Positions 21,861-54,310 of a DNA stretch of 64,000 nucleotides are shown here, piece by piece. The notes below the pieces were generated by a model. It ran no database searches. It saw only the letters and a program-made list of their open reading frames with translations, and was not told the DNA's origin. The translations under genes and the position numbers were made by a program. The stretch is from Stegostoma tigrinum (Eukaryota): NCBI RefSeq assembly GCF_030684315.1, contig NC_081396.1:4898001-4962000 (forward strand), written 5' to 3'. Numbering within the stretch: the stretch's first letter is position 1; every line of letters begins with the position of its first letter.

Positions 21861-22643
21861 GCTGCAGGTGATTATTGACTAAACAGCACTGTGGTGTACT
21901 TACAGCACAGGCATTGTAACAGTTCAAGAAGACGTTTCACACCCTCTTTCTACAAGTCACATAAAGATTGGCACTAAATACTGGTCTGGGCAGCAACGAT
22001 CATACATCATGAATAAATGATAATTGAGATGTATTTCTATTTTGTGGAGAGGTATCAATTGTCATAATTTTAATCACAGAATACAGCTTTCAAATAACTG
22101 ACAAGTAATGCACAGTGAAAATGTGAAGATTAGTTTATTTAGTGCGTTCTAAGCATCTGGAATTGTTTGAACGGCAGGTGGATGCAGATTCACCAGTTCT
22201 TCTCCAAAGATATTAAGCATTAGAAATAGATACAATCGTCATATGTACTCAGATGCACGAATGCGCGAGTACAGTGTAAAGTGTACAAAGCCGCCATTTT
22301 CCAATGCCACATTGCTTACAAAGTCACATTTTTTTAAAAAGATAGAGATGTTAGAAATGTTACTATTTGAGGAAAGATTTGGAGGACTTTGAGCAAATGA
22401 AAAGAAAGGTGAGACAGCTTAGTAGCATCTCCAAGGGGAGTGGTCACGGGTTCACTGGACTGAACAGCCAGCAGCAATGCGCTGTGTGCACCATTCACTG
22501 GGAATGATGAAGCTCATCCCAGGCCAGAGAGAGGGAGGATCCCGCTACTCATCTCAGAAAGGGGCCCGCCTGATTGACGGCAGCTCACCGACAAGGAAAG
22601 TGGGCGGGGCTGTTGGACCAAGCGTAGAAGGCTGGTCTCAGAC

Positions 22644-23243
22644 TTTTGAGAGAGCAAGAACTGCAGATACTGGAGTCAGAGACAACACAGTTTGGAGCTG
22701 GAGGAACGCAGCAGGCCAGGCAGCGTAGAGGATCAGAAAAGTTGACGTTTCGGGTCGGGATCCTTCTTGACGAAGTGGGAGGAGAAGGGAGCTGGGAAAT
22801 AAATGGAGATAGGATGTGTGGGGCTGGAGAAGGCAAGTGGGATGGCGATACGTGAGCGCAGCTAGTGAGTAAAAGGAATTGGTCAGTGGGCTTTGTGGGC
22901 CGGATAGGTGGGAGGGAAAAAAGTGTGGAGCTGGATGAACACAGCAGGCCAAACAGCATTGTAGGAGCACAAAAGCTGACGTTTCGGGCCTAGACCCTTC
23001 AACAGAAAAGCAAGAGAGAAGATGGGCAGGTTATGTCAAGACAAGGAGGCGGCGATCATCCCTATCCTGCACTCATCTACTACCATCCCACCTGCCTTCC
23101 CCAGCCCCAACCCTCCTCGCTCTACTTATTTCCCAGCTCCCTTCCACCTCCCCACTAACGAAAAAGGGTCCCGACCCGAAACATCAACTTTCTCAGCTCC
23201 TCTGTCGCTGCTGTGTTCCTCCAGCTCCTGTGTGGTCTCAGAC
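22644..23243. mobile_element. Composite inverted Penelope pLTR insertion with a nested second pLTR copy
   Basis: Minus copy 22650-22915, nested minus copy 22920-23005, plus copy 23075-23243. tggtctcagac is repeated at 22633-22643 and 23233-23243. Confidence 0.8.
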
Positions 23244-23399
23244 GCGACCTGCTGAAGGAGCAGCGCCTCAAAAGCGTGTGATTGCAAATAAACCGATTGG
23301 GCTACCTTAAATTACACCGATGATCTCTGAATCCTAAGTGCCTGCTGACTATTCGCCGTTGTGGATATGCCACTAAACCACCTGAGCTACGATAATACT

Positions 23400-23830
23400 C
23401 CCTTTATATGAAGGCATTTCACTCAACCCCGCTCTCCATTGCTTGGAAAACCCGGCGTCCGGCGTCTTCCGGCTTTCTACAACCAATTGGAATGAAGGGG
23501 GCGGGGCGAGAATGGACGGCACGTGACCATTTACGCCGCCGGCTCAGTGCCGCTGTGACTGGCGGCTCGGTGAGTGCGGCTGGTGGAGACGGGGAGAATC
23601 AGAAGACGCCGGGACGTAAATGGAGCTAGTCCTGGCTGCGAGCTTTTACGAATGCCCGGTGTAGGGCGCTTGATCCGAATTGGAAACCCCCGGTCCCGCG
23701 TTTACAGCAAACTGGAAACCGCTGCGGGCCTCAGGCGGTGATCGGCCCCGGTTGAACTCCGCCATCTTTATTTGGGAGCAAGGCGCAGCAGCGCTCATGC
23801 GCATGCGTCTTCCACGTTGTGAGTGGGGTG
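23400..23830 (+). promoter_or_regulatory. CpG-island promoter / first exon, probably of the ZNF unit at 26.5 kb
   Basis: CpG-dense. Contains CCAAT (aaccaattgg), GC box ggggcgggg, E-box cacgtg, YY1 ccgccatctt (~23759), NRF1 tgcgcatgcg (~23798) and donor-like GTGAGT at ~23570 and ~23819. Confidence 0.8.
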
Positions 23831-24479
23831 TTCTGAAGAATAGCATTTTCTGAGCAAACTGAAACCAAGAGAAATGTTTGTCTTTTCTCGATTTTTGTCC
23901 TGGGCTGACAGTGATTTTTCATTTGTGAATGCGTTGTGCATGTTATTGTTCGGGAACAATTTGTAGATCGGGATATCAAAAGAAGTTCTGATTGCCAGCG
24001 GAGTCATCAAGATCTGAATATCACTCGTCTTTATCTGTGGAAGGAAAGAGGTTTGTCTGTTCGATCTGTGGGAGAATATTTCTGATATCTTTGTAATTTA
24101 GAAAGCAGCAAGATTTTCAAATTCGTGGTTAGATCACTCCTGGCGCATGTTTTCAGTTCTGGGCCCTGCAACTGAGGAATGAGATATTGGCCTGAGAGGG
24201 TCTCAAATTTATCAAAAGAGTGCCTCATTTATTTCAGTCAGATTTCGTCCCAATCATCCACTTCGTAATGTTAACCTATTAATTCCTCATTCTGAAATAC
24301 CTGCAAACTTTTTTTTAAAATTCCTTCTTGACTCAATGTTCTAGCACCCTTTCCAGATCCTTGAATCTAGAACACTTATAGAGTGCTGAATTTAAAGATG
24401 AGATGCTGTTCTCTGAGTACCCATTGACCTGCACTGGAAAAGTACAGGAGGCTGAGTTCGGAGTGGGTGTGAACAGTCA

Positions 24480-52169: not shown

Positions 52170-52820
52170 CTAAGGCCATTACCAATATGAGTCAGTCAAT
52201 CTAAACACTGCCCCTTGACATTCAATGGTGTTACCATCAGAATCCCCCAATATCAGTATCTGAGGGTTAACTGACCAGAAACTCAAATGGACTTTCCACA
52301 AAAGCACAGTGGCTTCAAGAGCAGCTCAGAGGCTAGGAATACTGCTGAGTAACTCACTTCCTGACTCCCCACAGCTTGTCCATCATCTACAAGACGCAAG
52401 GAGTATGATGGAATACTCCCCTCTTGCTCAGATGAGTGCAGCTTCAACACAAGAAGTTTCACACCAAGAACAAAGCAGCCCATGTGATTGGCACAACATC
52501 CAAAAGCATCCACTCCCTTCACCGACACTCAGTGGCAGTGTGTACTATCTGCAAGATGCACTGCAGCAGTTCAAAGATCCTCAGACTGCACTTTCCAAAC
52601 CCATGACCACTTCCATCCGGAAGGATAAGGCAAACTGATACATGGGAACACCCACACCTGCAAGATTCCCTTCAAGCCACTCACCATCCTGACTCAAAAG
52701 TGTTATTGTCCTTTCAGTTTTGCTGGGTCAGAATCCTGAGATTCCCTCCCTAAGGGACATTGGGTCAAACCACAACAGGCAAGTAATGGTGGCCAGAGAT
52801 GCCAGCATTCCACAAGAGTA
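52170..52820 (+). mobile_element. LINE 3' end remnant
   Basis: ORF 52309-52638 RAAQRLGIL...RSMMEYSPLA (RT C-terminus), followed by 3' UTR gatacatgggaacaccc...caagccactcaccatcctgac. Confidence 0.7.
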
Positions 52821-53735
52821 TGAGACCCCCTTTATTACCTTTGGGTAACTGCCCCATTTCCTTCAAGGGACATGGCTGCAGATATGGCACCAGTACATCA
52901 GTTGCAACATTCACCACCAGGTCCAGAAGTCACTACCACCCACCTGCTGAGGGTCACACAGTCAATAAGTTAGAGAAACACTGCCATTAACTCATTTAGT
53001 AGCATTGTAGGTACACATTCATAAAACAGACTGCAGCAGTTAAAGGTGGTCAACCATTAACACTGATTATTTCACTGGTCAAATGGTCTGAGGACAGGCT
53101 CTATTCTGAACCTCGCAACTGATGAATTTAAATTCATTTCAATAAATCTGCAGTTAAAATCTAGTGAGTAATAGTACCATGAAACTCTGTCATAAAAACC
53201 CACCTGCTTCACTAATGCCCTTTTACAGAAGGAAATCTGTCTGGTCTAATGGGACTTCAGACTTACTGTAATACAGTTGACTCTTACCTCCCTCAGAAGA
53301 GGCTGGCTAAGGGCAATCAGCAAGAAATTTTGGTCTTGCCTGCAATGCCGCACCCCATTAAAAATTAGAAGCATCTACTCTGCTGTCAGCTGGGGTTTGG
53401 CAACATCTGCTGTTGGTCTCATCAGAAACACCCAAATTCCCAGAATATGTTGCATAAGTTTACGTACTAAAACAGATAAAATGCATCCAGTGAAATACCT
53501 TTCTTCCTGAATCAAAATAGCGTGCATTTAGCCGACAAAACTATCCGAGAACCTCCTTCCCTTTGGCAGTTTCATGGTGGAAATTGCAGGGTTCCAACGA
53601 CCTCGAGATTTTAACGTGGAGTTTGTCCTTCCGCAGATCCTCCTCCCTGTCCACTGCAGTTGAAACCGACTCAGCAAAGGCTTTCTAAAGGGAACAGGAA
53701 GAATAACAGAAGTTAACAAGCCTAGGCGAAGGGAG

Positions 53736-53878
53736 ATAGCAAAAAAAGTGTGTAGACCAAGGGTCTAGGCCCGAAACGTCAGCTTTTGTGCTCCTGAGAT
53801 GCTGCTTGGCCTGCTGTGTTCATCCAGCTCCACACTTTATTATCTTGGATTTTCCAGCATCTGCAGTTCCCATTATCA
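53736..53878 (+). mobile_element. Short Penelope pLTR insertion with ~14-bp TSD
   Basis: ctaggcgaagggag (53722-53735) and ctagacgaagggag (53879-53892) flank gggtctaggcccgaaacgtcagc...cccattatc. Confidence 0.88.
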
Positions 53879-53899
53879 CTAGACGAAGGGAGTATGACC

Positions 53900-54310
53900 G
53901 AGTGTCTTGCTGTTACTACAGAAGCAGCATAAACAGGACGACCTGAACGGCCTCTTCGTATCTTACGTTCACTCAAGCGGTCCTGCAACCTGCTCACGAG
54001 AACTACTTGGAAACCTAGAACCCAGCCACCACCTCGCAGTAAAACGCCTCCTCATTTGTCCACCTGAAAGGCGAAAGGTGGCCAGCAGCTCCGCCCGCCC
54101 TCAGTTACTCCGATTGGCTGGAGGAACCGTCGCACGCAATTGGTCTTCCGACAGTACGTCTTTTTCTATTGGTGCCGCTGTGCCATCAATCAGCTATGCT
54201 CCGGAGTGAGGTGCCGGGGGGCGGGTTATATTGGTGCGGGGGCGTGGCTGAGTGAGTGACGCCCTCATTATGCGGATAGAACCGGAAGTTGATCCCAGTT
54301 GCAGAGGAGC
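53900..54310. promoter_or_regulatory. CpG-island, probably bidirectional, promoter between two divergent ZNF pseudogenes
   Basis: ATTGG at 54113, 54139, 54168 and 54230; GC boxes gggggcggg and ggggcgtggc; ETS site accggaagt at 54281-54289. Confidence 0.75.

What the first reader, a model, noticed from the sequence alone, without database searches (positions are those of the whole stretch)
22440..54310. Short ribozyme-bearing pLTR insertions flank almost every ZNF CpG promoter
Seen: the promoter at 23.4-23.8 kb is split from its upstream half (22440-22640) by the insertion at 22644-23243. The 30.5-30.8 kb promoter is bracketed by 30214-30291 and 30948-31160. The 47.2-47.5 kb promoter is bracketed directly by 46928-47184 and 47562-47797. 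The 53.9-54.3 kb promoter is abutted by 53736-53878, and the weak 42.9-43.2 kb island has 43581-44300 within 400 bp. The insertions have different TSDs and belong to more than one subfamily, so they are independent events rather than one duplicated cassette. Inference: GIY-YIG-mediated targeting of open chromatin at germline-active promoters, or selective retention as promoter-border or transcript-processing elements. I know of no description of this for shark ZNF clusters.
Basis: partly seen in the sequence, partly recalled or inferred. Interest (0 to 1): 0.7.

Follow-up and report, generated by a model that had tools for sequence, protein, structure and literature searches.

The report
Penelope retrotransposon scraps crowd promoter edges
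Short pieces of a Penelope-type jumping gene sit about 3 to 4 times more densely at the edges of CpG-island, promoter-like sequences than in nearby DNA, at zinc-finger genes and elsewhere in this genome alike, likely because the element inserts more easily into open promoter chromatin.

Summary
The seven insertions are real and independent. They are pLTR pieces of a Neptune-type Penelope-like element (PLE). The promoter link replicates outside the window: in two other ZNF stretches, 28 insertions lie within 250 bp of a CpG island against 9.2 expected (p about 1e-4); a third test is weaker (8 against 3.5).

Three parts of the claim fail. "Almost every" holds only in the window: 24 of 44 islands elsewhere. 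It is not ZNF-specific: 31 of 63 motif-anchored islands off these clusters also have a copy, and edge densities match (7.5 against 9.4 per 10 kb, p=0.39; control 2.7). "Ribozyme-bearing" is loose: 1 of 7 keeps a complete hammerhead core.

Target sequence and repeat dilution do not explain the excess. A relative lacks the 53.7-kb copy, which argues against a needed border element.

Best reading: insertion bias toward open promoter flanks, with purifying selection clearing island cores (0.55). Longer survival of old copies is the main rival. Seven literature searches showed no report of this for PLEs. The scan noted PLE hotspots in ZNF promoters of another genome (e1-8633453).

The parts
22644..23243 (.). 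PLE insertion with three pLTR arms and an 11-bp TSD, in the upstream part of the 23.3-23.9 kb island
23264..23933 (+). CpG island of the ZNF-family promoter type (CCAAT, GC box, E-box, YY1-like motifs), paralogous to islands at +74, +114 and +205 kb
26642..27467 (+). Broken C2H2 zinc-finger array (longest open stretch 122 of 275 codons)
30214..30291 (+). Young 5'-truncated single pLTR arm, 12-bp TSD, no CUGANGA core
30500..30800 (+). GC-rich promoter-like stretch that fails the island criteria (o/e 0.51)
30948..31160 (.). Older inverted two-arm pLTR insertion, 11-bp TSD
33658..34524 (+). Open C2H2 zinc-finger array (9 Pfam zf-C2H2 stretches)
42900..43200 (.). Weak CpG-rich stretch that fails the island criteria (GC 0.52, o/e 0.59, 12 CpG)
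43379..43477 (-).
43581..44300 (-). PLE insertion: pLTR arm at 43586-43709, further sequence with a nested SINE at about 43916-44200, 9-bp TSD; left junction appears shared with a related species
45421..46401 (-). C2H2 zinc-finger array (8 Pfam zf-C2H2 stretches), downstream of the 47.2 kb island
46928..47184 (.). Older inverted two-arm pLTR; the only one of the seven with a complete minimal-hammerhead core; left junction appears shared with a related species
47199..47520 (-). CpG island (NRF1-like, GC box, E-box) bracketed by two insertions
47562..47797 (.). Inverted two-arm pLTR with one-sided tail, 15-bp TSD
53736..53878 (+). Young single pLTR arm with tail (98% to nearest copies), 9-bp exact TSD core; orthologous site empty in a related species
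53884..54443 (+). CpG island (CCAAT, GC boxes, ETS-like motif)
54656..55945 (+). Broken C2H2 zinc-finger array (longest open stretch 137 of 430 codons)
14761..16224 (+). 3' part of the parent PLE: RT C-terminal region, Cys linker motif, GIY-YIG endonuclease (frameshift near 15447), then pLTR; its CpG richness is not a promoter

Best explanation
These insertions are short, independent copies of a Neptune-type Penelope-like retrotransposon that are enriched about 3- to 4-fold at the edges of CpG islands across this genome, likely because its GIY-YIG endonuclease nicks accessible, nucleosome-poor promoter flanks in the germ line more often, while purifying selection likely removes copies from island cores. 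Shown: element identity, independence, the enrichment and its replication, no ZNF specificity in absolute edge density, and no explanation by target sequence or by repeat dilution. Inferred: that the islands are active germ-line promoters, that the bias acts at insertion, and that ZNF paralogues tolerate young copies better. ZNF clusters make the pattern conspicuous because they pack an island about every 10 kb.
For: Excision-based permutation outside the window: 28 insertion points within 250 bp of 27 islands against 9.2 expected, and 18 of 27 islands hit against 7.8 (both p about 1e-4). Third test: 8 against 3.5 (p=0.017). Pooled edge zone, 100 bp inside to 300 bp outside: ZNF clusters 31/32,868 bp against 74/352,033 bp far away (4.5x, p=5e-10); other islands 37/49,346 bp against control 114/421,236 bp (2.8x, p=7e-7). 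The fresh set of 16 other islands replicates (2.6x, p=0.001). High-scoring family-A copies, a proxy for young ones, are 5.2x enriched at ZNF edges (p=8e-6), which points to insertion and not only to age. They are absent from cores of other islands (0 in 35,529 bp, p=0.007) but present in ZNF cores (4 in 19,865 bp, p=0.017). A target-site matrix from 111 junctions scores flat across distance bins, and unique-DNA-only ratios stay at 3.1-3.6x. A SINE control shows no clear edge excess (ZNF 4/31,576 bp near against 16/201,864 far; other islands 1/61,564 against 20/346,854). Two pLTR families and long fragments all show the excess. Old shared and young lineage-specific copies both sit at islands.
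Against: At islands off the ZNF clusters, high-scoring family-A copies are only 1.5x at edges (p=0.14) and 1.2x over the island plus 1 kb (p=0.21); much of the excess there is family B and lower-scoring copies, as longer survival would predict. In the third test, islands hit were 6 of 17 against 3.4 (p=0.11). Fixed copies cannot separate insertion from survival. No chromatin data or TSS map was available. The genes behind the 63 'other' islands were not identified. The repeat mask came from under 2 Mb of sequence and misses repeats. Several distance cut-offs were tried and p-values are uncorrected. The 16 newest islands have no paired flank control.
Confidence: 0.55

Rival explanations
1. No insertion bias: copies land evenly, but promoter flanks are old, slowly turned-over, hypomethylated DNA, so short copies survive and stay recognisable longer there.
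For: At islands off the ZNF clusters the excess is strongest for older-looking copies: arms under 60 bits 2.8x, 80 bits or more 1.0x; nearest-neighbour identity is lower near islands (92.2 against 95.0%, p=0.011). Family-B copies near islands keep more CpG (18 of 34 against 30 of 94, p=0.04). Promoter flanks hold less repeat DNA (14% against 33%).
Against: High-scoring copies are 5x enriched at ZNF edges, also in unique DNA only (10/25,266 against 11/143,683 bp, p=4e-4). The under-60-bit class was largely a second family, not decayed family A. Few hits lie near the detection limit (2-13% under 35 bits). The SINE control shows no clear edge excess.
Confidence: 0.22
2. The edge peak is partly made by the insertions: a copy landing inside an island cuts off its outer part, which then loses CpG, so the copy ends up defining the edge.
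For: 9 of 15 'inside' copies in ZNF islands lie within 81 bp of an edge. The cut-off piece at 22440-22640 has o/e 0.47 against 1.03 for the main island. Cores of other islands look depleted (0.52x, p=0.09).
Against: It moves copies from core to edge but adds none: core plus 300 bp is still 3.3x in ZNF clusters and core plus 1 kb is 2.0x at other islands.
Confidence: 0.1
3. Copies are kept by positive selection as promoter borders, methylation barriers or ribozyme-based transcript-processing elements.
For: Copies cluster tightly at edges and bracket some islands (5 of 27 ZNF and 4 of 47 other islands); 12 of 17 orientable copies lie upstream (p=0.07; orientation inferred from one motif); several junctions appear shared with a relative.
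Against: About half the islands have no copy; the 53.7-kb site is empty in the relative; hammerhead cores are not better kept near islands; 1 of 7 claimed copies has a full core; a single minimal hammerhead showed no cleavage in vitro (PMC4209133); long fragments and promoters of broken ZNF arrays are hit too.
Confidence: 0.08
4. Chance plus selection after the fact, on a background of roughly 0.6-0.9 million pLTR loci.
For: Window density equals background. With both families counted, the window alone is weak (4 against 1.5 within 250 bp, p=0.06). Only 3 of 9 ZNF-motif loci taken from across the genome had a copy within 200 bp.
Against: Out-of-sample replications in ZNF stretches and in two sets of other islands.
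Confidence: 0.03

Closest known systems
EN+ Penelope-like elements, Neptune clade (PMC8557442, PMC3846280; passages read)
   Same: [quoted passage not shown]
   Different: The passages read describe bias for microsatellites, AT-rich DNA or rDNA. None describes promoter or CpG-island bias. Here the junction flank reads TCAGA with an A-rich patch at -25 to -18.
Minimal type I hammerheads of metazoan PLEs (PMC4209133; parts 1-2 of 4 read)
   Same: CUGANGA, stem II, GAAAC-GUC in the pLTR; thousands of dispersed single motifs per genome
   Different: Most copies here have broken cores. No Rfam hammerhead match. No sign of selection on the motif near promoters.
Tf1 of fission yeast (PMC6314160; passages read)
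   Same: Insertions cluster at the nucleosome-depleted flank of Pol II promoters
   Different: Tf1 is an LTR element with an integrase tethered by Sap1, and most de novo insertions go to promoters. Here the element is a target-primed PLE, the bias is 3-4x on a large dispersed background, and no tether is known.
Poseidon element PAc of Anolis (PMC11167929; passages read)
   Same: PLE protein nicks and extends both target strands, which fits two-arm inverted inserts
   Different: PAc is described as homing to AT-rich DNA or its own pLTR; 'chromatin' does not occur in the main text.

Membership tests
EN+ Penelope-like element | GIY-YIG endonuclease C-terminal to an RT in one ORF | tested here: met
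   A genome copy 98% identical to the window's EN has RVT_1 (E=0.052) then GIY-YIG (E=0.0015) in one open frame; both are below Pfam's cut-offs. The window's 120-aa EN alone had no Pfam hit at E 0.01.
EN+ Penelope-like element | CCHH motif with two cysteines between the GIY and YIG boxes | tested here: met
   VVYCIHCTRCGFLYIG followed by EH and NHF in the window translation; feature as stated in PMC8557442
EN+ Penelope-like element | pLTRs, often inverted, one arm with a tail of about 30 nt; TSD of variable length | tested here: met
   Two-arm copies pair one arm ending near profile position 98 with one ending at 127; TSDs 9-15 bp in 6 of 7
Neptune (or Nematis) clade | CX2-5CxxC linker motif between RT and EN | tested here: met
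   CNRRKCYTC just before the EN; absent in Penelope/Poseidon per PMC8557442
Neptune (or Nematis) clade | RT phylogeny places it in Neptune | not tested
   No reference RT set was at hand; Neptune is preferred over Nematis because a preprint lists only Neptune and Poseidon in vertebrates (10.64898/2026.07.22.740005, passages)
Minimal hammerhead ribozyme | CUGANGA, helix II, GAAA, palindromic short helix III, cleavage triplet | tested here: inconclusive
   Met by the family pattern, but complete in only 1 of 7 claimed copies; no Rfam match; single-strand folds are no better than shuffles (z -1.2 to 0.05)
Minimal hammerhead ribozyme | Self-cleavage as a dimer | not testable with these tools
   Needs an in vitro assay
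Promoter-targeting retrotransposons (Tf1-like) | Excess of copies at promoter flanks | tested here: met
   2.8x and 4.5x at island edges
Promoter-targeting retrotransposons (Tf1-like) | Bias shown for de novo insertions and mediated by a host tether | not testable with these tools
   Only fixed copies in one assembly were examined
Non-LTR retrozymes | Tandem head-to-tail arrays of hammerhead units | tested here: not met
   The seven copies are single arms or inverted pairs; one has three arms

The most novel reading that the evidence does not exclude
A vertebrate target-primed retrotransposon (Neptune-type PLE) preferentially inserts at the open flanks of Pol II promoters in the germ line. Its hundreds of thousands of dated copies would then form a fossil map of germ-line accessible chromatin, and a steady source of promoter variation in fast-turnover ZNF clusters, where young copies are tolerated.
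Probability: 0.4. Interest if true: 0.7.

Novelty: new variant of a known kind. Interest (0 to 1): 0.52.

Why it matters
PLE target choice is described only at the level of sequence in the papers read. A chromatin-level bias toward promoters would add PLEs to the elements known to favour promoters, such as Tf1, and would be unusual for a target-primed element. About half of the CpG islands sampled here have a PLE piece within 250 bp, so these copies would be a major source of cis-regulatory change in this lineage. The claim is cheap to test genome-wide with data of a kind that already exists. The element, its ribozyme motif and its insertion anatomy are already known.

Tried and rejected
1. 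Rfam search of the window: no hammerhead family, only hairpin miRNA look-alikes below gathering score.
2. DNA search of the genome with a pLTR arm returned nothing, because common words are skipped; uninformative.
3. Duplicated-cassette origin: rejected.
4. Target-sequence preference as the cause: rejected; matrix score 2.8-3.3 in all flank bins and lower inside islands.
5. Islands being PLE ORF remnants: rejected for the tested set; only 1 of 35 islands had PLE-body sequence in its margin. The 14.8-15.3 kb CpG peak in the window is PLE ORF and was masked.
6. My interim idea that ZNF islands tolerate copies deep inside (9.8 against 1.5 per 10 kb) weakened: most 'inside' copies are within 81 bp of an edge, and the pooled core contrast for all copies is not significant (p=0.22). 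It holds only for high-scoring family-A copies (4 against 0).
7. Reading low bit scores as age was misleading: many were a second family.
8. Expression: no RNA holder listed.
9. Polymorphism between two samples of the same species could not be read; contigs break at the repeats. Orthologous status at 22644 and 47562 stayed open. At 30214 it is only suggestive: a relative's contig runs 258 bases past 30313 with that part unlisted.
11. An element-anchored test with the 150 young copies was not run: too little power for the DNA left.
12. No PDB match for the RT-EN fragment; no Atlas result.
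Full report
What is in the window. A profile built from the window's own pLTR arms finds 11 family-A loci: 4511, 8890, 16130, 22650, 28104, 30212, 30947, 43586, 46927, 47569 and 53755. A second, more diverged family B adds 7 loci. Six have exact TSDs of 9-15 bp; none was found for 46928-47184. 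The 30.5 and 42.9 kb sites fail. Two other 'islands' at 59.3 and 60.2 kb lie in an ENaC/ASC-family channel gene, the first just upstream of and into its first coding exon; they have no pLTR within 5 kb and were kept in the counts. Of five ZNF arrays checked, two are open or nearly open and three are broken.

What the element is. [quoted passage not shown] An unaltered genome copy carries RVT_1 and GIY-YIG in one frame, both below Pfam's cut-off. At least 150 copies are 98% identical over the EN. These features fit a Neptune-type EN+ PLE (PMC8557442). Inverted arms with a one-sided tail match the anatomy in PMC3846280. The pLTR holds the minimal hammerhead of PMC4209133, but only 1 of the 7 claimed copies has the full core. 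Background is very high: 27 family-A loci in 170 kb from 17 random stretches (3 of 20 requested did not exist). Both families together give roughly 0.6-0.9 million loci by extrapolation.

Is the association more than chance? In the window, 4 of 11 family-A copies lie within 250 bp of five objective islands against 0.9 expected (p=0.009); with both families it is 4 of 18 against 1.5 (p=0.06). I therefore tested outside the window, cutting PLE sequence out first so that elements could not shape the islands by their own letters, and dropping islands that are ZNF exons (3 of 17 in the second stretch, 1 of 18 in the third set). In the 166 kb to the right of the window plus 130 kb of a cluster 3.6 Mb away, 28 of 86 insertion points lie within 250 bp of 27 islands against 9.2 expected, and 18 of 27 islands are hit against 7.8 (both p about 1e-4). 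Family A alone gives 16 of 48 against 5.0. Two further 100-kb stretches give 8 of 40 against 3.5 (p=0.017) and 6 of 17 islands against 3.4 (p=0.11); five of those islands lie in one long CpG-rich stretch away from any ZNF array. The 100 kb left of the window and the far right 134 kb held only one repeat island, one isolated island and one tandem-repeat island, none with a copy nearby, and were left out of the cluster tests. Pooled, 24 of 44 islands are hit, so 'almost every' is too strong.

Is it ZNF-specific? I sampled loci genome-wide by promoter motifs recalled from memory (ZNF143-, YY1-, BANP-, ETS-, NRF1- and CRE-like). Of 102 loci in the first set, 47 were unique islands, 36 were not islands and 19 lay in repeats and were dropped. 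Of 60 in the second set the split was 16, 26 and 18. The first 47 have paired flanks 5-13 kb away; the 16 use the 26 non-island loci as control. I did not identify their genes, and no TSS was mapped. Edge density is 7.5 per 10 kb against 2.7 in controls (2.8x, p=7e-7) and does not differ from ZNF edges (9.4, p=0.39); 31 of 63 islands are hit against 29% expected (p=5e-4). One difference remains. Family-A copies of 80 bits or more are 5.2x enriched at ZNF edges but only 1.5x at other edges (p=0.14); the direct contrast is 1.9x (p=0.11). They occur in ZNF cores (4) but not in other cores (0).

Confounders. A matrix from 111 tail-end junctions shows TCAGA at -5 to -1 and an A-rich patch at -25 to -18; part of TCAGA may be the element's own end. 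Its score is flat with distance from islands. Limiting to unique DNA leaves 3.6x (ZNF) and 3.1x (other edges); core plus edge at other islands is only 1.5x (p=0.075). A SINE shows no clear edge excess, on small numbers. Few hits lie near the score threshold. The family-B profile was seeded from hits in the same data, a mild circularity; family A was seeded only from the window. Copies may cluster, and several cut-offs were tried, so p-values are indicative.

History. Laying contigs of a related species (about 92-94% alike, two studies) shows one 1209-base contig that joins 53210-53735 to 53925-54545 with 18 bases between: the 53.7-kb site is empty there. Its contigs run 25-31 bases into the 43586 and 46927 copies and 23 bases into the 30948 copy, so those appear shared. 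This agrees with nearest-neighbour identities of 98% against 84-88%. Promoter-edge insertion has happened both before and after that split.

Mechanism. Most likely the RT-EN protein nicks accessible DNA beside transcription-factor-bound promoters in the germ line and primes reverse transcription there, leaving truncated or inverted pLTR pieces. Selection then clears copies from cores, less so at redundant or dying ZNF paralogues. The enrichment is shown; the chromatin cause and the selection step are inferred. Longer survival of old copies is the main rival and probably contributes at non-ZNF islands. Co-option is the least supported active reading.

Literature. Seven full-text searches listed no paper on PLE enrichment at promoters or at shark ZNF clusters; the library lacks most subscription papers. 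Seen: PMC4209133, parts 1-2 of 4; passages only of PMC11167929, PMC3846280, PMC8557442, PMC7561263, PMC6314160 and 10.64898/2026.07.22.740005. No supplements were seen; they could hold distance-to-gene tables. The last preprint reports retrozymes enriched in intergenic DNA of Xenopus, without the word 'promoter'. This scan has many notes on the anatomy of these elements in this genome and one on PLE hotspots in ZNF promoters of another genome; I did not check that one.

Verdict.

Noticed in passing
window 59474-59835 (+) and onward to the window end: Coding exon of an ENaC/ASC-family sodium channel gene (Pfam ASC, E=2e-18) embedded in the ZNF cluster; its GC-rich stretches mimic CpG islands.
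   Followed up: partly
window 14761-16224 (+) and 8890-9654 (-): Two long 3' fragments of the parent PLE; the first has a frameshift between linker and endonuclease.
   Followed up: yes
   Followed up: yes
junctions of 111 family-A copies: Target flank reads TCAGA at -5 to -1 with an A-rich patch at -25 to -18; in several copies the TSD includes the CAG, so it is at least partly host sequence.
   Followed up: partly
window 23760-23780 and G000:C55 (10 of 16 genome matches): A YY1-like motif marks a family of paralogous ZNF promoters spread over megabases of contig C55.
   Followed up: partly
L066, L072-L074, L087-L089, L091; L121-L124: Near-identical loci on several contigs share one PLE insertion: a young larger repeat or duplicated segment carrying a PLE.
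   Followed up: no
G000:C55:4898001 + 321723-323497 (window-relative): A 1.8-kb CpG-rich tandem repeat with 8 ETS-like motifs in a pLTR-poor stretch.
   Followed up: no
window 652-1202, 14010-14111, 19973-20239, 49380-50059: Further decayed zinc-finger remnants without a surviving CpG island, consistent with birth-and-death turnover.
   Followed up: partly
depth table: The young subfamily at 47569 and 53755 is several-fold less deep in the related species' contigs than in this species', while older copies are similar: a hint of expansion after the split (contig depth is not copy number).
   Followed up: no
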